39,543 nucleotides of DNA from a virus: IMG/VR virus record IMGVR_UViG_3300029951_000064; one strand, given 5' to 3'. The translations under genes and the position numbers were made by a program. Under the pieces are notes generated by a model. It was given only the letters and a program-made list of their open reading frames with translations. It was not told the origin of the DNA and made no database searches. This document shows, in pieces, positions 984 to 33,475 of the stretch (the first letter of the stretch is position 1; each line of letters starts with the position of its first letter).

Positions 984-1052
984 CTATCCTCCAAAAATCA
1001 TTCGAAACGCGAAGCCCGCGCCGACGCCGAGCTTTCCGAAAGCCGAGCCCAT
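984..1052 (-). CDS. Possible 22-aa glycine-zipper micropeptide (MGSAFGKLGVGAGFAFRMIFGG)
   Basis: Not in the track because it is under 60 aa. ATG 1052..1050 shares one base with the upstream TGA (TGATG). It fills the gap between two genes. Its GGAGGA codons double as the RBS of the next gene. Confidence 0.25.
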   Translation of the reverse strand: MGSAFGKLGVGAGFAFRMIFGG

Positions 1053-1810
1053 CACTTTTTGTCCTCGCCGGGATATTTCTCGCGATCGACCGCCGAATCA
1101 AAGCGCATGCGCTGCAACTGCTCTTTGCGCATGGCGTCCGCCGCCGCCTGATCGCCCGCAACCTGCATTTGCTGCAAATCCTGCTGATGCTCTTGCGCGC
1201 TCAGGGCAGAGTCCTGCGCGCGCGCCTGGGCGTCAACGTGATGGTCCGCCATGCTGGCCTGCGCGTCGATTTGCGCCTCTTGCACGCCAATTCGAGCCTT
1301 GGCGATTTCCGCCTGGGTTTTGACCTGCAACCCCTTGAGCTTGATAAGTTCGTCGGGGTTCGGCTGCGGCGGCGGCTTGGGCTGCCCGGCCTTCTCGACC
1401 ATCTGCGCAACCATCGTCTCAATTGTGGTTTCGAGCGTGCGGCCGACCTTGTAAGCGCGCAGGGCGAACAGCATCAGGTCGCCGGCAAGCTGCGCCATTT
1501 GTGGCTGCGCGGCGACGATCGGCCCCCACGTCTCGACCATTTTGGTGATGACCTCGACAAGCTCAGTGCGGTCCTTTTTCTCCTGCGCTTCGTCCCCGGC
1601 GATCGTCGAGTCGGCCTCGATGTCCATGCGGAAGCGGCGCGCGGGATTGTCGCGCAGCAAGCGCATGACCGCATCAATGGTGATCGGCGCCCCAGGCGGC
1701 AGGGCTTGCGGGGACGGCTGCGCGGCAGGGGGCGGCGTTTGTGGCAAGCCGCCAGCGGGCGGGGAGGGGGGAGCGCCGCCAGCGGGCTGCGGAGAGGGTT
1801 GAGGGAGCAT
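1052..1810 (-). CDS. Pro-rich N-terminus plus long coiled-coil protein (252 aa). Portal-associated, scaffold-like, or a detached portal C-terminal segment.
   Basis: ORF track (1052..1813). ATG at 1810 shares one base with the portal TGA. N-terminus PQPSPQPAGGAPPSPPAGG, C-terminal half Q/A-rich heptad-like. Confidence 0.6.
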   Translation of the reverse strand: MLPQPSPQPAGGAPPSPPAGGLPQTPPPAAQPSPQALPPGAPITIDAVMRLLRDNPARRFRMDIEADSTIAGDEAQEKKDRTELVEVITKMVETWGPIVAAQPQMAQLAGDLMLFALRAYKVGRTLETTIETMVAQMVEKAGQPKPPPQPNPDELIKLKGLQVKTQAEIAKARIGVQEAQIDAQASMADHHVDAQARAQDSALSAQEHQQDLQQMQVAGDQAAADAMRKEQLQRMRFDSAVDREKYPGEDKK

Positions 1811-3540
1811 CACGGTATAGCTCCCATGGCCGGTGCACCGGGCGCGGGCGCCGGCGTGGCGCGAGACCCTCCCGATGCCATCGCGCCAGGCTGCGGGGCC
1901 TGAGCTTGCCGAATGGCCGCGGCGACCTGCGCCTGATGCTGCGCGGCCTGTTGCATGGCCGCCTGTTGCCGGGCCTGCGCCTCTTGCTGCTGAAGCTGCA
2001 TCAAAACCTCCTGATCGGTCGGCAATGGCATATTCGCCATGGCCATTATCGTCTCAGGCTGGAAATGGTTGCAAATGATCTCGCCGACGATCCTCGTGAA
2101 ATCGCGGCAGAAACGCCCCAATTCCTCTTGGCGGGTTCGCATCCGCGCGGAGCCATGCTGAGATTTGAGGACTTGCGCGCCTTTGGTTTCGTCGGGGTCC
2201 GTGGCGCCGCGCACAATGTCAGAGATCCCGGTGATCTGGTAAACGTCCTCAATCAGCGCCGCGCGGAGCTTAACGCATCCCTCCAAAACCTGAGAGACCA
2301 TTTCGACGGGCCAGAAAATGACGGGCGGCACACTGCCATTGGCCGCGAACTGCGCCCAATTCCGAACGGCGATCATGCGATTTTCCACGCCCGCCGTCGC
2401 CGCGCGCTCAAGCTCGGGGAAGCCGGCGCCGTCCGGTCCCCCGGCATAGAAGCCGACCACCTTGAGCGAATCTTGAAGAGCGGCGATGCGGGCGGTCAAT
2501 TGCTGAATTTCTTCGGCCTGATCCTGATAATAGGTGTAGTCAGGGCGCGGAACGAGGGAATCGCTCGTCAAAGTCCCATAGGCCGGGCGAGGACAGGGAT
2601 AGAAGCCCGTCAGCTTGAGATAGGGCTCGTCCTCCTCAAGGGCATGGGCGAAGCCTTCGGCAACCCATAGGACGCGATTCTCGGACCTGTCCCAAACTTC
2701 CCAAATCTTGGCCTTTTTCTCAAGATTATCGTCTTTGCCGGCGTCGTCGGTCGACTTGTTGTTATAGGCCAAGCGCTCGGAAATCTTAACGCCGGCCTCG
2801 TCCGTCATCGGCTCGCCGTTTTCATCAACGAAGCGTTTTTCGACCTCTTTTTTCGTGAGATAGGCGGCGAACGCAACCCAAGTGACCTCGTCCCATGTGC
2901 GCGCGTCGTCGTGCGCGAAATCCTTCAAATGGACGAAAACAATCTTGACGCGCTCGAATTTCAGAACCTCTTGGGAGGCCGGAGTGTCATTGTCCTCGGA
3001 CGTGTCGCCCTCATGGGACCCGGCCTCTTCCTCGGCGTCACGTTCTATTTCTTCGCCGGCTGCTTGGACGCCCTCGGCGTCGGCCGTGTCGAGGTCATCG
3101 CCCTCGCCGCCGCCCATGTCGACCGTCTCCATGACCGGCTCATAAACGGCACGGGCTTGACCGCGAGCGTAGAGTAAGAAATCGTCTCGAACGAGTTTGA
3201 ACTTTCCGTCATAGTTTTCGGAATCAAACGTAAAATCAATGCAGCGCTCCACCATCATGCCAGCTTGGCGAGCCGTGTCGTCCTTATCGGTGAAGCGGCG
3301 CGTAACATCGGCCTTTGGCGGCTTGGCATAGGTTGCCGCCTTCATGACCTCTATGTTTGCCCAAAAGATTTGATACTTGCGGACCTTGACCGTTTGACTG
3401 TCGTCATACCGGTAAACGTCTCTGATTTTCCTGCAAGCCTCGAACCATTTCTCCATTCCGCGCGCTTTTTGCGACTTGCGAATGAGGGTGATCCAAGGAT
3501 TTTCGTCGCCTTGGACTCCCGAAGTATCGTTGTCAGCCAT
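1810..3540 (-). CDS. Portal protein (576 aa)
   Basis: Size, position downstream of the large terminase, and an acidic insert plus Q/A-rich C-terminal tail typical of podovirus portals. Family-level recognition only. Confidence 0.8.
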   Translation of the reverse strand: MADNDTSGVQGDENPWITLIRKSQKARGMEKWFEACRKIRDVYRYDDSQTVKVRKYQIFWANIEVMKAATYAKPPKADVTRRFTDKDDTARQAGMMVERCIDFTFDSENYDGKFKLVRDDFLLYARGQARAVYEPVMETVDMGGGEGDDLDTADAEGVQAAGEEIERDAEEEAGSHEGDTSEDNDTPASQEVLKFERVKIVFVHLKDFAHDDARTWDEVTWVAFAAYLTKKEVEKRFVDENGEPMTDEAGVKISERLAYNNKSTDDAGKDDNLEKKAKIWEVWDRSENRVLWVAEGFAHALEEDEPYLKLTGFYPCPRPAYGTLTSDSLVPRPDYTYYQDQAEEIQQLTARIAALQDSLKVVGFYAGGPDGAGFPELERAATAGVENRMIAVRNWAQFAANGSVPPVIFWPVEMVSQVLEGCVKLRAALIEDVYQITGISDIVRGATDPDETKGAQVLKSQHGSARMRTRQEELGRFCRDFTRIVGEIICNHFQPETIMAMANMPLPTDQEVLMQLQQQEAQARQQAAMQQAAQHQAQVAAAIRQAQAPQPGAMASGGSRATPAPAPGAPAMGAIP

Positions 3541-28962: not shown

Positions 28963-29726
28963 GCGAGCGCTCCCAACAATCCAATGCCGGAACTCCCGAG
29001 GCCGAATAGCCCCCCCATTGCCGCGTTGCTTTGCGCGACCTGTTGTTGATAATTCTGCTCGACGATGCCCGCGACATTCGTCGGCGCGACGCCGGTTTGG
29101 GAGGTCGGCGCCAGCGTGCCAACGCCGGGCTGAGAAACTTGGCTTCCCGTTTCGAGCGAAGAAAGGGCGTTGAGAGGTTCGTTATATTCTGACGTAAGCG
29201 CGGATTGAGCCTGCGATGCGTCCTGCCCGAAAGCGGACGCATAGGCGTTGTCCTTTAGAAGTCCCTCGTTCGAAATTGCCGTGGTATAGCCGGCGCTCCC
29301 CGGCGCGAGACCTTGGTCGTAGGCGGTCTGCTGGGTCTGCGCATCGTTGCGCGCCCATTGGGGATCCATCGTGAATTCGTTTTCCTTGTCGAGTTGCCCT
29401 TGCAACGCCGAATAGGAAAGGTCGAGAGGATTCGAGAGAGTCGAGGAGGCCGTGTTTTCGAGCTGACCGGCGAGATTTGCGCTTCCCGTCGCATTCGCGA
29501 TCGTTTTATCGGAAAGAGCTTGTTCGTCTGGCGCAAGCGTCGTCGTCGCTGTTTCTTCCGGCGCGCCGCTCGAACTCGTCCCGGTCTGATTGTAGGTAAT
29601 GTTGCCGTAAGGCGTGATCTGCGAAACGTCGTTAAGCTGGCTCTGATAATCGGCCGTCTGCTCGTTCGATTGCGTTTGCGCCTGGGCGGTCTGATACGGG
29701 TCGGGAGGGCTCGGCTGGCTGATCAT
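28959..29726 (-). CDS. Internal virion / ejection protein (255 aa), Q/S/T-rich
   Basis: ORF track. ATGA-coupled to the downstream gene. C-terminal glycine-zipper GGLFGLGSSGIGLLGALA. Confidence 0.5.
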   Translation of the reverse strand: MISQPSPPDPYQTAQAQTQSNEQTADYQSQLNDVSQITPYGNITYNQTGTSSSGAPEETATTTLAPDEQALSDKTIANATGSANLAGQLENTASSTLSNPLDLSYSALQGQLDKENEFTMDPQWARNDAQTQQTAYDQGLAPGSAGYTTAISNEGLLKDNAYASAFGQDASQAQSALTSEYNEPLNALSSLETGSQVSQPGVGTLAPTSQTGVAPTNVAGIVEQNYQQQVAQSNAAMGGLFGLGSSGIGLLGALA

Positions 29727-30129
29727 TCGAAAGCCTCAAGATTTTCTGCCTTGAGGCGAGGAGGCCTAGAATGATGCCGTCCTCTCGGGGAAAGCGATCT
29801 TTCATGACGCCCTCGGGCTCAAAGCCGAGTTTCAGAAGGCTTCTGATCGCCCGATCATTAGAAATTGGGGTTACGCACGTCACCCGCGCAACGGCGAGCT
29901 TGCCAAACACATAGTTCGCGATATTCCGCATAGCCCACATCGGCCATGGCTTCAACACTGTGCACGATAAATCGACGTTGATCCGATCGAAGTTGTTGAA
30001 AACCAGCGCGCCGGCCAATTCTTCGCCGTCGAGGACGACAAGGCCGACGAATGGCTCAGAAAAAACGAGGCCAAGAGGGACGCCGATCGCGCGGGCCGCG
30101 CGCGCATTGTCTTGCGAAACGGAGAACAT
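29632..30129 (-). CDS. GNAT-family N-acetyltransferase (165 aa)
   Basis: FGKLAVARVTCVTPISNDRAIRSLLKLGFEPEGVMKDRF matches the RimJ/RimL-like GNAT core (..v.a.v...N..s.rl.eklGF..eG). AAGGA RBS. The 3' 95 nt overlap the next gene. Confidence 0.65.
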   Translation of the reverse strand: MFSVSQDNARAARAIGVPLGLVFSEPFVGLVVLDGEELAGALVFNNFDRINVDLSCTVLKPWPMWAMRNIANYVFGKLAVARVTCVTPISNDRAIRSLLKLGFEPEGVMKDRFPREDGIILGLLASRQKILRLSNDQPAEPSRPVSDRPGANAIERADGRLSEPA

Positions 30130-30148
30130 TGATATATGAAATCCTTCG

Positions 30149-30271
30149 ATCGCTTTGGGGCAGCATGGTAGCCCGCCGCTTGTCGGAGCCGAGCGCTATG
30201 ACGGGGTCGCTACCCGTTAATATCTCGGGAGGGGTGCAACCCTCGCGCCGGTTCAAATCCGGCAGGCGATT
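30149..30271 (+). ncRNA. tRNA-derived / tRNA-like element, non-canonical (about 50 nt too long, no CCA)
   Basis: Acceptor ATCGCTT (30149-55) pairs with AGGCGAT (30264-70). T at position 8. D-arm GGGC-AGCATGGTA-GCCC (30158-74). T-arm GCCGG-TTCAAAT-CCGGC (30247-63). There are 71 nt between the arms instead of about 22. Confidence 0.35.
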
Positions 30272-30273
30272 CT

Positions 30274-32043
30274 TCACCCGAGCACGTTCCCCTCTTGGAA
30301 CATCACGTCGAAGGCAGAAATCCGCTGATCGGGCAGCGTCGTTCCCAAATTCGTCGTCAACTGGAAAACAACCCCGATCGCGACGCCTTCGCCCTGCGCG
30401 TCCTGCCATGTCGAATAGGGGACGAGCGCGCCAGACCAGACGGCTTGATCCCACTTCGCCACGTCCCAAAGCGCGCCGGCAAGCGCCGTCGAGGGGTTCG
30501 GGCCAGCCGGAATCGTGGTGTTGAATTCGACGTTGATCATGATTTGCGGCGTGACAGGTTGCGCGGCGAGAAAATAGGGCTTCACCAACACAACCTGCTT
30601 TTGCGAGGCTGGGCGCCCGAGATAGGAGAACGCCATCATGATGGTGGTGGTGTAATTATTTAGGCCGGCGTCGCAGCCTCCCGTCTCGCCCTGCCAGACG
30701 TTGCCAGCCGAATCCCCGTAAAACATATTGTCGTTGAAAATGCCGAAGCAATTGGCGTCCCATCCGAGATAGCGCGCCCAGGCGCCGGTGCGGGAATTGG
30801 CGACGAATTGCGTGAAATCCGAGGCATTTTCCTTCGGCAGATTGATGATCGCCATCGATTGCAGGGGCCACGGCACGATTTGCCAGCCCGAGATACCGGC
30901 CCGGGCAATGACAGCATCACGCCAGGCGGGCGCAATCGGCTTCGTCACGGCGATGTTTTCGAGGGCGACTTGGTCGAGGGTCATGACCTTCGACATCGGG
31001 ACAATGCCGTCCTCGGTCATAATGAGGAGGTCGCCGCCCGCGGGCATGGTGCAACGCGGGCCGAGCGGTCGCGCGATGGTATATTGGCCGACCAGCGTCC
31101 AGCTTGTATCGGCGGGGCTCGCGCCGTTGTAGAGAAGAACCTCGCCTTCGGACGTGATGAACACAAAGCCGAGATATTGCCCGACGCCGGAATTCACGGC
31201 CCATTGGGCCATCGCAATGAGATATCCTCCCTTGAGGCAAAATGGCGCGAGGGGAAAGAGCGTCGCCGGGCCGCCGATCGCGGCGAGGCCGAGATAATAG
31301 CAATTCAAGGTTTGGCCGTCGGCGAAATACAAATGCCCGCGATATTGCGCGACGGCGGAAAATCCGACCCCGGAATATCCGGTAATCGGCGCATTCTGAT
31401 AAAAAGTGAGCGATTCCGCCCCGGAGCCCGTCGCCGCGATGCTGATGACGATGCTCGTGTTCGGATTGATGCTGACGATCGTCGCGCCCGCGGGAATGTT
31501 CGTGCCCGAAAGCGCCATTCCGACTTGCAGATTCGCGGTCGACGCCATGAGAATCGTCGTCGTCGCATTGAGCGTCCCGGAAAGGACGAAGGTGCGATTC
31601 CATCCGGTCCCGTCGAAGATTTGAACAGGATCGACCCCGTCGACGGCGACCAGATAGCTCCCCCCAAACCCGGCAAACTGCACATATTGCAGAAAGCTGC
31701 TGTTGAGGCCGGTGACCTTCGGCGCCCCAACGGCGCCCGCGCTCGAAATATCGTAAATCTCTTTGTTGCAGACGGCGAAAAACTTCGAATTGACCCCGCT
31801 TACCCAAGGCATGATGGACGAGACGGCGAAGGATCCCATCCCGCTCGCCCACAATTGCGAGCCTCCCCGCACGCGAACGTAGTCAAGTTGGGGAAATGCG
31901 TTGTCGAAAACGATTGCGGTTTTGGGGGGAGGCTGCGCCTGGTTATCGCCGACATACCAACCCGAGGTCGGGGCCGGCATATTGAAAACCTCGGAGACCT
32001 GCGCGCCCGCATCCTCCATTTGCTGCTTGCGGCGCCGGCTCAT
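30274..32043 (-). CDS. Virion structural protein (589 aa), nozzle or tail-tubular-B-like
   Basis: Size and position after the adaptor-like gene. Contains the shared G..IP.G.TI module. Family call tentative. Confidence 0.5.
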   Translation of the reverse strand: MSRRRKQQMEDAGAQVSEVFNMPAPTSGWYVGDNQAQPPPKTAIVFDNAFPQLDYVRVRGGSQLWASGMGSFAVSSIMPWVSGVNSKFFAVCNKEIYDISSAGAVGAPKVTGLNSSFLQYVQFAGFGGSYLVAVDGVDPVQIFDGTGWNRTFVLSGTLNATTTILMASTANLQVGMALSGTNIPAGATIVSINPNTSIVISIAATGSGAESLTFYQNAPITGYSGVGFSAVAQYRGHLYFADGQTLNCYYLGLAAIGGPATLFPLAPFCLKGGYLIAMAQWAVNSGVGQYLGFVFITSEGEVLLYNGASPADTSWTLVGQYTIARPLGPRCTMPAGGDLLIMTEDGIVPMSKVMTLDQVALENIAVTKPIAPAWRDAVIARAGISGWQIVPWPLQSMAIINLPKENASDFTQFVANSRTGAWARYLGWDANCFGIFNDNMFYGDSAGNVWQGETGGCDAGLNNYTTTIMMAFSYLGRPASQKQVVLVKPYFLAAQPVTPQIMINVEFNTTIPAGPNPSTALAGALWDVAKWDQAVWSGALVPYSTWQDAQGEGVAIGVVFQLTTNLGTTLPDQRISAFDVMFQEGNVLG

Positions 32044-32783
32044 TCATCGCCTGTCAAGGTCGTATAGATCGGCAGAATCCCCGGCCATACGCTCGGGCCG
32101 CCGAGCGGGACTTGGCTCATATTCACTTCCCGATAGGTATCCTGCCGCCCGTCGGCGCGCATGAACGAGCGCTCGAACCGCTCTTTCGCCGCCCCGTAGG
32201 AAAGGCCTTTGGCCTCAAGCCAGCGATATTCGAGTCCGCGCGTCATGACTTTTTCATCAATCAGCGAAATATCGGTATCGGCCGACCAGTAGAGCCGATG
32301 AACGCCCGCCGCGGTCTGAATCCAGCGCGGCGAATAATAATTATAGGTCAACGTCTCGCCGAGCGAGAGGGCGGGCCAGACCTCGAAAGTGTTGCCGATG
32401 ATATGCCAGACCGGGCGAATTGGGCCGACCGGGAAGGCCTTGAGGGCCGCCAATTCTTCGTCGGTCACCCGAACGATGGGCTGCAAAGGGAACGCGGTCG
32501 ATTGCATTTGCAGGCCCGGCGACATGCCGGCGAAATCACTGGCCGGTGTGTCGGCCGCTCCAATCGGGAACGGCCAAATCGTCGTCACGCCATCGCCGGG
32601 GCCGATCGACGCGGGAACGTCGAGGGGTTGCCAGAAATCGCTTTCCGCGACTTCGTCCCCGACATCTTGCAAGAGCGCCTGCATTTGAGCGACGCCGGAA
32701 TCGGCAGTGTTGCCGAAAACGGTCGCGACCGTCCCCATGTTTTTGCGGAGGCGGAACGCGTTGACGATGCTCAAAAGGCTCAT
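32040..32783 (-). CDS. Virion structural protein (247 aa), adaptor or tail-tubular-A-like
   Basis: Position. ATGA-coupled to the 589-aa gene. Tentative. Confidence 0.45.
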   Translation of the reverse strand: MSLLSIVNAFRLRKNMGTVATVFGNTADSGVAQMQALLQDVGDEVAESDFWQPLDVPASIGPGDGVTTIWPFPIGAADTPASDFAGMSPGLQMQSTAFPLQPIVRVTDEELAALKAFPVGPIRPVWHIIGNTFEVWPALSLGETLTYNYYSPRWIQTAAGVHRLYWSADTDISLIDEKVMTRGLEYRWLEAKGLSYGAAKERFERSFMRADGRQDTYREVNMSQVPLGGPSVWPGILPIYTTLTGDE

Positions 32784-32806: not shown

Positions 32807-33475
32807 TCAGGCGGCCTGTTCTTTGGGATGCGCCGGGCGCCCAGGGCCGCGCTTCGGCGCGTCTGCGGATGACGACTGCGCATCGAGGCGCGCGCCAAGC
32901 TCGCGAATCTGGCGCTGCAAATCCTCGTTCGATTCCTTGAGGCGATCGTTTTGCGCGGCGATGCTCGCGGCAATCCCCGCGTCTTTCGAGGCCCCGAGCC
33001 ATGCCTTCGCGCGCTCGCGCCATTGATTGCCGTCGAGAATGCGATGGAGGGTCGAATCGGGGCATTCGGCCAAGTGCTCGACCGACAGAATATTGAGCGC
33101 CTTCAATTCCATGCAAAATCCGGCCGAAATCATCGGCCAATGGGAAAGCGGCGTCCCGTCGATATGGTCGTTTTTCTTGGTCTCTTTCCAGCGCTTGTAA
33201 GCCTCGTGGAAGCGCTCGCGCAGGGCGTCCGTCACAGGATGAACAGGCGCGCTGTTATGGTCTCCGGTGGTGCGCAGCATGACCATTTCGTCGTCGCGCG
33301 TGCGCAGCGTGCCGGCTGCATCGGTCGCGCGCTGATCGACCGACGTTTGCATGAAGAAAACCGCCGTAATGCCCTTGTTCATCGCGGCATAGTCGACGCC
33401 GTTATTGCCGACCGTGGCGAACACGTCGTTGAGGCCGAGATTTTGGGTTTCGAAGGCTGAAAAAACATCGCTCAC
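32807..33475 (-). CDS. Hypothetical structural-module protein (222 aa)
   Basis: ORF track. GTG start with a GAGGAG RBS. C-terminal coiled coil. Confidence 0.5.
   Translation of the reverse strand: MSDVFSAFETQNLGLNDVFATVGNNGVDYAAMNKGITAVFFMQTSVDQRATDAAGTLRTRDDEMVMLRTTGDHNSAPVHPVTDALRERFHEAYKRWKETKKNDHIDGTPLSHWPMISAGFCMELKALNILSVEHLAECPDSTLHRILDGNQWRERAKAWLGASKDAGIAASIAAQNDRLKESNEDLQRQIRELGARLDAQSSSADAPKRGPGRPAHPKEQAA

What the first reader, a model, noticed from the sequence alone, without database searches (positions are those of the whole stretch)
30130..30273. tRNA-derived element antisense to the late operon, divergent from the GNAT gene: possible tRNA mimic or recombination scar
The 144-nt gap contains, on the plus strand, an unmistakably tRNA-like frame. 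There is a 7-bp acceptor stem (30149-55 with 30264-70, one G-U pair), T at position 8, and a canonical D-arm GGGC-AGCATGGTA-GCCC with the GG dinucleotide. There is also a perfect T-arm, GCCGG-TTCAAAT-CCGGC; GGTTCAAATCCGGC is the T-arm sequence I know from initiator tRNA-Met. However, 71 nt separate the D and T arms where about 22 are expected. That insert contains two extra hairpins: ACGGG-GTCGCTA-CCCGT (30201-17, U33-like T but a pyrimidine at position 37) and GAGGG-GTGCAA-CCCTC (30229-44). There is no CCA. It fits exactly between the GNAT RBS and the stop of the 589-aa gene. A possible promoter (TTGCGA 30112-17, then TATATG 30133-38 after a 15-nt spacer or TATGAA 30135-40 after 17 nt) would start transcription just before it. 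No integrase is present, so an attP role is not supported. Its juxtaposition with a GNAT, a family whose toxins acetylate aminoacyl-tRNA including initiator tRNA, raises the speculative idea of a tRNA-mimic RNA paired with the acetyltransferase as decoy, substrate or RNA antitoxin. It could also be a decoy for host tRNA-targeting defences. A degenerate tRNA gene or a scar of the insertion event is the conservative reading.
Basis: partly seen in the sequence, partly recalled or inferred. Interest (0 to 1): 0.7.

Follow-up and report, generated by a model that had tools for sequence, protein, structure and literature searches.

The report
Rearranged tRNA-shaped RNA element in phage
A 122-base tRNA-shaped insert between two phage late genes is real and has relatives in two other phages, where the same parts occur in a rearranged, Y-RNA-like order; it has no tie to the neighbouring acetyltransferase.

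Summary
Window 30149-30270 (+) has a 7-bp acceptor stem, U8, a D arm, a T arm and the elbow tertiary nucleotides of a tRNA, with 72 nt between the D and T arms. ARAGORN and Rfam do not call it, only because of that insert.

It is not a decayed tRNA. After circular permutation, its sequence and helices align along their whole length with elements in two other GC-rich phage contigs (L112, L119): 97 of 132 columns are identical, 97% of pair cells are paired and 5 pairs show compensatory changes. In those contigs the order is V arm, T arm, closed acceptor hairpin, D arm. This is the YrlA (bacterial Y RNA) layout, with a 25-bp terminal stem and 10-11-bp flanking direct repeats, which suggests mobile insertions.

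In the window, the 144 nt are an insertion into a stop/start junction that is tight in most of about 40 relatives. In two of the closest relatives (L042, L043), antisense HNH homing-endonuclease genes sit at this same junction.

The GNAT is a conserved structural-module gene that occurs without the element in all relatives, and it resembles SSAT/RimJ enzymes rather than TacT/AtaT. The decoy or antitoxin idea is therefore not supported.

Expression of the plus strand is unproven, and the proposed promoter is at chance level. Most likely this is a mobile, anticodon-less tRNA mimic whose function is unknown.

The parts
30130..30148 (+). AT-rich 19-nt leader TGATATATGAAATCCTTCG that belongs to the inserted block. 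On the minus strand it supplies the GNAT Shine-Dalgarno (GAAGGA).
   Evidence: Relatives have a tight TGATG/ATGA stop-start overlap instead of this sequence.
30149..30155 (+). Acceptor stem, 5' strand (ATCGCTT). It pairs with 30264-30270.
   Evidence: It is homologous to the 3' strand of the closed acceptor hairpin of L112/L119, with compensatory changes.
30156..30175 (+). U8, G9, D arm GGGC-AGCATGGTA-GCCC (30158-74), then G26.
   Evidence: 92% identical over 24 nt (30156-30179) to L112 5011-5034 and L119 6628-6651.
30176..30186 (+). Anticodon-arm stub CCG-CUUGU-CGG. It occupies the place of the GCGG/CCGC helix that continues into the 25-bp terminal stem in L112/L119.
30189..30228 (+). X arm. 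Lower stem CCGAG/CUCGG (30189-93 with 30224-28), internal loop, upper stem UGACGGG/CCCGUUA, apical loop GUCGCUA (30206-12).
   Evidence: all pairs kept in the three sequences. The hairpin is also found in T4 rnaD and in L103.
30229..30244 (+). V (variable-type) arm GAGGG-GUGCAA-CCCUC.
   Evidence: Pair 53:73 is G-C, C-G and U-A in the three sequences.
30247..30263 (+). T arm GCCGG-TTCAAAT-CCGGC.
30264..30273 (+). Acceptor stem, 3' strand AGGCGAT (30264-70), discriminator T (30271), then CT. No CCA.
29632..30129 (-). GNAT acetyltransferase gene (165 aa). It is a neighbour, not a partner. Its first ~84 codons (30129 down to 29878) lie in the block that is non-homologous to L042, together with the element.
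30274..32043 (-). 589-aa late structural gene (phrog_5107; annotated as neck, tail tubular or amidase protein in relatives). Its stop codon abuts the insertion.

Best explanation
Window 30149-30270 (+) is an intact, tRNA-shaped structured-RNA element, not a decayed tRNA.

Anatomy. It keeps the whole 'top half' of a tRNA: a 7-bp acceptor stem stacked on a 5-bp T arm, plus the D arm and the elbow nucleotides. The anticodon arm is cut down to a 3-bp stub. Two extra arms fill the variable region: X, with a conserved GUCGCUA loop, and V.

Family. It belongs to a small family of phage-borne elements. In the other two members (L112, L119) the same helices are circularly permuted into the YrlA / bacterial Y-RNA order: the acceptor is closed by a GAAA loop and the 'anticodon' helix is extended into a 25-bp terminal stem. 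Those two copies behave as ~188-bp mobile insertions flanked by 10-11-bp direct repeats.

Location. In the window the element is part of a 144-nt insertion into a normally overlapping stop/start junction. That junction is a landing site for selfish DNA, since antisense HNH homing-endonuclease genes sit there in L042 and L043, two of the closest relatives. The element is unrelated to the GNAT next door.

Inferred, not shown. If the plus strand is transcribed, the 12-bp acceptor/T minihelix and the elbow would make the RNA a substrate for RNase P, the CCA-adding enzyme and T-loop/D-loop modification enzymes. This has been shown experimentally for the 7-bp-acceptor YrlA of M. smegmatis. The product would be a stable ~122-125-nt non-decoding tRNA mimic that could occupy factors binding the tRNA elbow or acceptor end. 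Its benefit to the phage, if any, is unknown.
For: - The tRNA frame is verified and unique.
- tRNA-clan covariance signal: 18.9 bits, E = 0.2 over all 4227 families in a 251-nt search.
- Homology with block order swapped: window 30184-30268 matches L119 6525-6618 (74% over 95 nt, E 8e-10), and window 30156-30179 matches L119 6628-6651 (92% over 24 nt).
- The permuted window sequence aligns colinearly, with 97 of 132 columns identical.
- Structure counts: 39 pairs, 97.4% of cells paired, 5 pairs with changes on both sides; slid controls reach at most 52%.
- RNAalifold independently predicts the same seven helices.
- The L119 element folds at -113.8 kcal/mol, z = -8.4.
- Its T-arm/acceptor-hairpin/D-arm module gives a partial hit to Rfam YrlA: 24.6 bits, E 0.0024.
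- Direct repeats flank the L112 and L119 copies, exactly 198 nt repeat-to-repeat in both, and removing the L112 copy restores a 101-aa ORF.
- The junction is tight (-2 to +20 nt) in most relatives; HNH ORFs lie antisense at the same junction in L042 and L043.
- DNA homology to L042 breaks exactly at 30272.
Against: - Only three family members were found, two of them 91% identical, so the covariation statistics are thin.
- There is no evidence that the plus strand is transcribed. The element is antisense to its operon, whereas L112 and L119 are in sense orientation. The only promoter-like site matches 8 of 12 positions, which is chance level.
- The unconstrained minimum-energy fold (-57.7) prefers an alternative 10-bp pairing (30177-86 with 30260-69) over the cloverleaf (-53.5).
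- The window copy has no terminal inverted repeats and no target duplication, so how it arrived is unknown.
- No further copies turned up in IMG/VR, GTDB representative genomes, GenBank phages or PLSDB with the patterns used.
Confidence: 0.62

Rival explanations
1. A degenerate tRNA pseudogene or recombination scar: a captured host or phage tRNA gene that picked up junk in its anticodon region and has no function.
For: - ARAGORN and Rfam do not call it at standard thresholds.
- The T arm and acceptor 3' end resemble phage tRNA-Cys and tRNA-Met genes.
- It lies at a recombination-prone junction, where the GNAT 5' half is mosaic.
Against: - Every helix is intact, including those in the 'junk' part.
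- The 'junk' itself (X and V arms, stub) is conserved in L112 and L119 with compensatory changes.
- No parent tRNA with these arms was found in 185,579 species genomes at long spacing or in viral contigs at any spacing.
Confidence: 0.12
2. It acts at the DNA or mRNA level, not as a tRNA-sense RNA. One version: any insert at this junction destroys the target of the HNH homing endonuclease carried by relatives, giving immunity to homing. Another version: the antisense copy in the late mRNA uncouples or tunes GNAT translation.
For: - It occupies the same junction, on the same strand, as the HNH genes of L042 and L043.
- The only transcript certain to exist is the minus-strand late mRNA.
- The insert replaces the stop/start overlap with its own Shine-Dalgarno sequence.
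Against: - The HNH cleavage site is unknown.
- The minus-strand fold is no better than shuffled sequence (z = -1.26, against -2.6 for the plus strand).
- The T-loop and D-loop consensus and the G-U pairs make sense only on the plus strand.
Confidence: 0.15
3. A tRNA-mimic partner of the GNAT, acting as decoy, substrate or RNA antitoxin.
For: Physical adjacency only. The element and the first ~84 codons of the GNAT lie in one block that is non-homologous to L042.
Against: - The GNAT is conserved at this position in about 40 relatives that lack the element.
- L112 and L119 have no GNAT.
- The GNAT profile's nearest solved structures are SSAT, AAC(6') and RimJ/L enzymes; no aminoacyl-tRNA-acetylating toxin appears.
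- Pfam assigns it to Acetyltransf_3 and Acetyltransf_8.
Confidence: 0.03
4. A phage attachment site (attP) derived from a tRNA gene.
For: Many phages integrate into tRNA genes, and some relatives of this phage group are described as temperate (from my own knowledge, not tested here).
Against: - No integrase among the 40 ORFs scanned.
- A whole tRNA-shaped unit is present, rather than a 3' fragment.
- No matching host tRNA was found.
Confidence: 0.02

Closest known systems
YrlA, the bacterial/phage Y RNA with a tRNA-like domain (Rfam RF02553; Chen et al. 2014, PMC4201824)
   Same: L112 and L119, the homologues of the window element, have the YrlA module order V arm, T arm, closed acceptor-like hairpin, D arm, with a terminal stem formed by the two ends. 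Rfam YrlA partly matches L119. The elbow nucleotides are conserved. [quoted passage not shown]
   Different: - The window copy has the unpermuted tRNA order, with an open acceptor and no terminal (Ro60-binding) stem.
- None of the three has the GNCGAAN0-1G motif.
- No TROVE/Rsr gene was found nearby.
- The score is far below the gathering threshold (24.6 against 69 bits).
- There is an extra X arm.
- The L112 and L119 copies look mobile.
Canonical tRNA, class II (long variable arm)
   Same: 7-bp acceptor stem, U8, 4-bp D stem with a GG loop, 5-bp T stem with a TTCAAAT loop, a variable-type arm directly before the T arm, and the G15:C48, G18/G19 and T54-A58 positions.
   Different: The anticodon arm is a 3-bp stub with no anticodon loop. 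It is 122 nt long and has an extra 40-nt arm. It falls below the Rfam tRNA thresholds, and ARAGORN does not call it by default.
Bacteriophage T4 small stable RNAs RNAC (species 1) and RNAD (species 2)
   Same: - They are phage-encoded RNAs of 119-139 nt with unknown function.
- RNAC ends in a canonical T arm followed by a strand that pairs with its 5' end, and its Rfam tRNA-Sec score is similar (17.5 against 18.9 bits).
- RNAD begins with the hairpin CCGG-GUCGCUA-CCGG, which shares its loop and an 11-mer with the element's X arm.
- Both lie beside a homing endonuclease gene, segB (PMC3014915, PMC9697503).
   Different: There is no overall sequence homology. RNAC has no D arm. Both are in sense orientation within a tRNA gene cluster. 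The shared hairpin could be coincidence (chance of about 0.003-0.007 for an 11-mer).
Circularly permuted RNA genes: two-piece tmRNA of Alphaproteobacteria and permuted tRNA genes of Cyanidioschyzon (from my own knowledge)
   Same: One RNA fold is encoded in two circular permutations in different genomes.
   Different: ARAGORN's tmRNA mode finds nothing. There is no tag reading frame. Here the tRNA-order form is the unusual one, and both forms occur in phages.

Membership tests
tRNA (Rfam RF00005 / clan CL00001) | Acceptor stem, D arm and T arm in cloverleaf register, with conserved tertiary nucleotides | tested here: met
tRNA (Rfam RF00005 / clan CL00001) | 5-bp anticodon stem with a 7-nt loop (Y32 U33 NNN R37) at the correct distance from the elbow | tested here: not met
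   Only a 3-bp stub follows G26. The 7-nt loop GUCGCUA has G32 and U37 and sits on a 12-bp interrupted arm. ARAGORN's intron-mode anticodon stem has 2 mismatches in 5.
tRNA (Rfam RF00005 / clan CL00001) | Score at or above the curated covariance-model threshold, or an ARAGORN default call | tested here: not met
   No hits at gathering threshold. The best clan hit is tRNA-Sec at 18.9 bits against a threshold of 47. ARAGORN finds no genes.
YrlA / bacterial Y RNA (RF02553) | tRNA-like module in the order V, T, closed acceptor-like stem-loop, D, with both ends forming a long stem | tested here: not met
   The window copy has the tRNA order with an open acceptor and a capped stub. The feature is met only by the homologues L112 and L119.
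YrlA / bacterial Y RNA (RF02553) | Score at or above the Rfam gathering threshold (69 bits) | tested here: not met
   Window: no YrlA hit at E <= 10. L119: 24.6 bits, partial. L112 and L119: nothing at gathering threshold.
YrlA / bacterial Y RNA (RF02553) | Ro60-binding module (GNCGAAN0-1G motif in the 5' strand) and a gene next to rsr (TROVE) | tested here: not met
   The motif is absent from the window, L112 and L119. No TROVE hit among the ORFs scanned. The host genome could not be examined.
tmRNA | tRNA-like domain plus a tag-peptide reading frame | tested here: not met
   ARAGORN tmRNA mode finds nothing. No Rfam tmRNA hit.
GNAT toxin / tRNA-linked toxin-antitoxin module (TacT, AtaT type) | The acetyltransferase belongs to the aminoacyl-tRNA-acetylating clade and co-occurs with its partner | tested here: not met
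   The nearest PDB relatives are SSAT, AAC(6') and RimJ/L. The GNAT occurs without the element in about 40 relatives.
MITE-like mobile insertion (as seen in L112 and L119) | Terminal inverted repeats plus a flanking target-site duplication | tested here: not met
   The window copy has no flanking direct or inverted repeats beyond the acceptor stem. L112 and L119 have 21-25-bp inverted ends and 10-11-bp direct repeats.

The most novel reading that the evidence does not exclude
The window element and the L112/L119 elements are two natural circular permutations of one RNA: a tRNA-order form and a Y-RNA (YrlA)-order form.

If so, this would be direct evidence that YrlA-type tRNA-like modules arise from tRNA-shaped genes, or convert back to them, by permutation. 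The route could be tandem duplication and trimming. It could also go through an RNA intermediate: RNase P opens the acceptor loop, the terminal stem is trimmed and ligated, and the product is copied back into DNA.

It would also mean that such RNAs travel between phage genomes as small selfish insertions. [quoted passage not shown]
Probability: 0.25. Interest if true: 0.8.

Novelty: new variant of a known kind. Interest (0 to 1): 0.62.

Why it matters
tRNA mimicry by bacterial and phage non-coding RNAs (YrlA, tmRNA, T4 RNAC/RNAD) is known, but its origin and function are mostly unresolved. Chen et al. [quoted passage not shown]

A homologous pair in which the same seven helices are wired once as a tRNA and once as a YrlA-like RNA would make that origin concrete and testable. 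It would also define a small mobile class of structured RNAs in phages of GC-rich bacteria.

On the practical side, standard tRNA finders miss tRNA-shaped genes with large central insertions. More examples were seen in passing in L116 and L118.

Finally, the work removes a tempting but wrong functional link to the adjacent GNAT.

Tried and rejected
- Whole-window ARAGORN and Rfam at gathering threshold found nothing.
- blastn of the element and of 1.3 kb around it against GenBank phages gave only trivial T-arm hits.
- Exact or gapped pattern scans of IMG/VR with the full D arm plus T arm, and with the X plus V hairpins, found nothing.
- A pattern allowing canonical spacing found only a jumbo-phage tRNA-Met.
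- The GTDB genome scan returned only canonical tRNAs with a chance upstream GGTAGCCC.
- About 75 relatives' loci fetched through the 589-aa protein contain no such element.
- The GNAT has only 6 homologues in the 5.8-billion-protein set, and none of the five whose contigs were retrieved carries the element.
- The antisense ORFs across the gap (157 and 137 aa) are arginine-rich noise.
- No HNH remnant is present in the window.
- No flanking repeats.
- Attempts to assign an isotype led nowhere. Cys was suggested by U73, the shared acceptor pairs (2:71, 3:70, 4:69) and T arm with phage Aziz tRNA-Cys, and a UGCAA loop; Met by the D and T arms. No single deletion yields a canonical tRNA with a sensible anticodon arm.
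- The 17-mer hairpin scan gave about as many hits as chance predicts apart from the T4-like phages. Several hits lie in coding DNA, so I did not build on it.
- The scan for the L112/L119 terminal repeat found only two chance coding matches.
- blastn of the L119 element against GenBank phages and PLSDB plasmids found nothing.
- The literature gave no described tRNA with such an arm.

Full report
**1. The observation**

- A 7-bp acceptor stem, 30149-55 with 30264-70, including one G-U pair.
- T at position 8 and G at position 9.
- D arm GGGC/AGCATGGTA/GCCC at 30158-74.
- T arm GCCGG/TTCAAAT/CCGGC at 30247-63.
- Two further perfect hairpins, at 30201-17 and 30229-44.
- No CCA.

The spacer between the D and T arms is 72 nt. 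The positions that build the tRNA elbow are also in place: A14, G15 with C48, G18 G19, A21, T54-A58 and G53:C61.

The frame is not a chance arrangement. A scan of my own for T arm plus 7-bp acceptor plus D arm found only this site in 538 kb (both strands) of related phage DNA.

Standard tools miss it only because of its length.
- ARAGORN finds nothing in the window.
- Rfam finds nothing at gathering thresholds.
- A local Rfam search gives only a tRNA-clan hit, tRNA-Sec at 18.9 bits, E = 0.2 across all families.
- ARAGORN calls a tRNA starting at 30149 in 961 of 1725 artificial internal deletions.
- In intron mode ARAGORN calls 30149-30272, but with a forced, mismatched anticodon stem.

The plus strand folds better than shuffled sequence (z = -2.6) and the minus strand does not (z = -1.26). 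The cloverleaf-constrained fold is -53.5 kcal/mol. The unconstrained optimum is -57.7 kcal/mol and uses an alternative 10-bp pairing.

**2. Surroundings**

The window is a phage genome.
- Small terminase, portal, major head, tail and lysis genes lie on the minus strand.
- RecT, exonuclease and NinB genes lie on the plus strand.
- By the 589-aa protein, it is related to podoviruses of Alphaproteobacteria: Bradyrhizobium ppBjS10J-1, Rhizobium RHph phages, Sulfitobacter pCB2047 and Brucella Tb.

Both genes flanking the gap are on the minus strand, so the tRNA-sense strand is antisense to the late operon.

There are 201 sites that good per strand in the window, and the promoter scan found none upstream.

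No integrase was found among the 40 ORFs scanned.

**3. The gap is an insertion at a hot spot**

The order 589-aa gene, GNAT, 255-aa virion protein is conserved in about 40 related loci. In most of them the stop of the first gene overlaps or nearly touches the GNAT start, with gaps of -2 to +20 nt.

Exceptions include the window itself, L042 and L043. L042 has 90% protein identity in both flanking genes. In both loci the gap (468 and 586 nt) is filled by an HNH homing-endonuclease ORF on the antisense strand, the same strand as the tRNA-like element. Their closest GenBank homologues are HNH genes of Rhizobium and Sinorhizobium phages.

DNA homology between the window and L042 (about 84%) stops exactly at 30272 and resumes at 29877. 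The element and the first ~84 codons of the GNAT therefore form a swapped block.

**4. No link to the GNAT**

- The GNAT is a conserved gene of the structural module and occurs without the element in every relative.
- A profile of it finds diamine/spermidine acetyltransferases, AAC(6') and RimJ/L-type enzymes in the PDB. No aminoacyl-tRNA-acetylating toxin appears among the 50 hits.
- Pfam assigns its relatives to Acetyltransf_3 and Acetyltransf_8.

**5. What the element is related to**

While comparing it with the T4 small stable RNAs, I noticed that the apical hairpin of the central arm (ACGGG-GUCGCUA-CCCGU) shares its loop and an 11-mer with the 5' hairpin of T4 RNAD.

A pattern combining that motif with a T loop retrieved two GC-rich viral contigs, L112 and L119. 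These are clearly homologous to the window element.
- Window 30184-30268 matches L119 6525-6618: 74% over 95 nt, E 8e-10.
- Window 30156-30179 matches L119 6628-6651: 92% over 24 nt.

The two blocks are in the opposite order in the two genomes. When the window element is circularly permuted (30180-30270 followed by 30149-30179), it aligns colinearly with both contigs, with 97 of 132 columns identical.

In L112 and L119 the layout is as follows (fold -113.8 kcal/mol, z = -8.4).
- The acceptor strands form a hairpin closed by GAAA.
- The helix that is a 3-bp stub in the window (CCG-CUUGU-CGG) continues into a perfect 25-bp stem made by the two ends.
- The order of modules is X arm, V arm, T arm, acceptor hairpin, D arm.

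This is the layout of YrlA, the tRNA-like bacterial Y RNA (PMC4201824). Rfam's YrlA model gives a partial match to L119: 24.6 bits, E 0.0024, far below the gathering score of 69.

**6. Is the structure conserved?**

I counted my seven-helix structure on the three-sequence alignment.
- 97.4% of pair cells form standard pairs.
- 5 pairs change on both sides. One V-arm pair is G-C, C-G and U-A in the three sequences, and two acceptor pairs also change on both sides.
- Sliding the 3' partners by 1-3 columns leaves at most 52% paired.
- Only 3-6 of 500 shuffles reach the observed values.

RNAalifold predicts the same helices on its own. With only three sequences, two of them 91% identical, this is supportive but not conclusive.

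**7. Mobility of the relatives**

- Both the L112 and L119 copies are bracketed by 10-11-bp direct repeats: CCCGCACCGGG in L112 and ATGTGAGGGC in L119.
- The repeat-to-repeat distance is exactly 198 nt in both.
- They lie in unrelated contexts. The L119 copy sits between a cytosine methylase gene and a small ORF.
- The L112 copy sits inside an ORF, and removing the insert restores a 101-aa reading frame.
- Neither contig shows a GNAT, an HNH relative of L042/L043, a TROVE/Rsr gene or the Ro60-binding motif.

I found no further copies. The window copy has neither terminal repeats nor a target duplication.

**8. Interpretation**

Shown:
- The frame is real and intact.
- It is an insertion at a junction used by selfish DNA.
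- It belongs to a conserved structured family that exists in two circular permutations.
- The GNAT is irrelevant.

Inferred:
- If the plus strand is transcribed, the 12-bp acceptor/T minihelix and elbow should be recognised by RNase P, the CCA-adding enzyme and T-loop/D-loop modification enzymes. This has been demonstrated for the M. smegmatis YrlA, whose acceptor stem is also 7 bp (PMC4201824).
- The product would be a stable, anticodon-less tRNA mimic.
- It cannot decode, because there is no anticodon arm.

Unknown:
- Whether it is expressed. It is antisense here, whereas the relatives are in sense orientation.
- What it binds.
- How the permutation arose.

Rival readings, with my confidence in each:
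- A junk pseudogene (0.12).
- A DNA- or mRNA-level effect, such as blocking the homing site or uncoupling GNAT translation (0.15).
- A GNAT partner (0.03).
- An attP site (0.02).

**9. Novelty**

tRNA-like non-coding RNAs in bacteria and phages are known (YrlA, tmRNA, T4 RNAC/RNAD). Circular permutation of RNA genes is also known (two-piece tmRNA, permuted tRNA genes).

What appears new is a homologous pair with the same helices in tRNA order and in YrlA-like order, both carried as small inserts in phage genomes. I rate it a new variant of a known kind, with interest 0.62. The score is limited by the small family size and the absence of expression data.

Noticed in passing
L042 3941-4408 (-) and L043 4415-5000 (-); also L042 684-1187 (+): Two of the closest relatives carry antisense HNH homing-endonuclease ORFs at exactly the 589-aa/GNAT junction. 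The two ORFs are 48% identical to each other. L042 has a second HNH_3 gene inserted between the homologues of window genes 32807-33475 and 32040-32783.
   Followed up: partly
window 1052-3540 (-): The portal gene is split into two ORFs. ORF 1810-3540 matches phrog_12082 positions 17-504 and ORF 1052-1813 matches positions 504-707 of 715. This could be a frameshift, a sequencing error or a true split.
   Followed up: no
window 29877-30272 compared with L042 3943-4666: The GNAT is mosaic. Its N-terminal ~84 residues are 46% identical to L042 but 60-61% identical to L043 and P0005, while the flanking genes are 90% identical to L042. This is the pattern expected from recombination or co-conversion around a homing-endonuclease site.
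   Followed up: partly
L116 69-703 (+); L118 272-391 (-): Other viral contigs carry tRNA-shaped genes of 95-120 nt with 30-60-nt expansions in the anticodon region; L116 has an apparent array of about four (two scored by Rfam). Rfam tRNA scores them at 40-45 bits, but ARAGORN calls none. They may be intron-bearing or expanded tRNAs.
   Followed up: no
window 30199-30219; T4 NC_000866 rnaD 5' end (L086 2150-2165, -); L103 998-1022: The hairpin with loop GUCGCUA recurs.
- It is the conserved 5' hairpin of T4 RNAD in at least 12 T4-like contigs, where the stem differs from the window's by a compensatory G-C to C-G change.
- A stand-alone intergenic copy lies just upstream of a ribosome-binding site in L103 (92% over 25 nt, E 5e-4).
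- Its 5-bp stem, G-C closing pair and xUCGxxx loop resemble a T arm.
   Followed up: partly
window 30177-30186 with 30260-30269: A 10-bp alternative pairing (CGCUUGUCGG with CCGGCAGGCG) competes with the T stem and acceptor stem and wins in the unconstrained minimum-energy fold. It may be an alternative conformer or a relic of the permutation.
   Followed up: no
L112 4867-5064: The 198-nt insert (element plus one direct repeat) is a multiple of three and has no stop codon in the frame of the ORF it interrupts. The host ORF therefore stays open through it, with 66 extra codons.
   Followed up: no
window 29632-29726: The GNAT gene overlaps the start of the downstream 255-aa virion-protein gene by 95 nt. 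L042 has a similar overlap of 77 nt.
   Followed up: no
L079 2332-2410 (Mesorhizobium sp. KR1-2): An odd tRNA-Met(CAT)-like gene with an A1xA72 mismatch, an unusual D arm (GGGG/AAGCTCGGTCTA/TCCC) and the same T arm as the element. It turned up as a chance hit in the genome scan.
   Followed up: no
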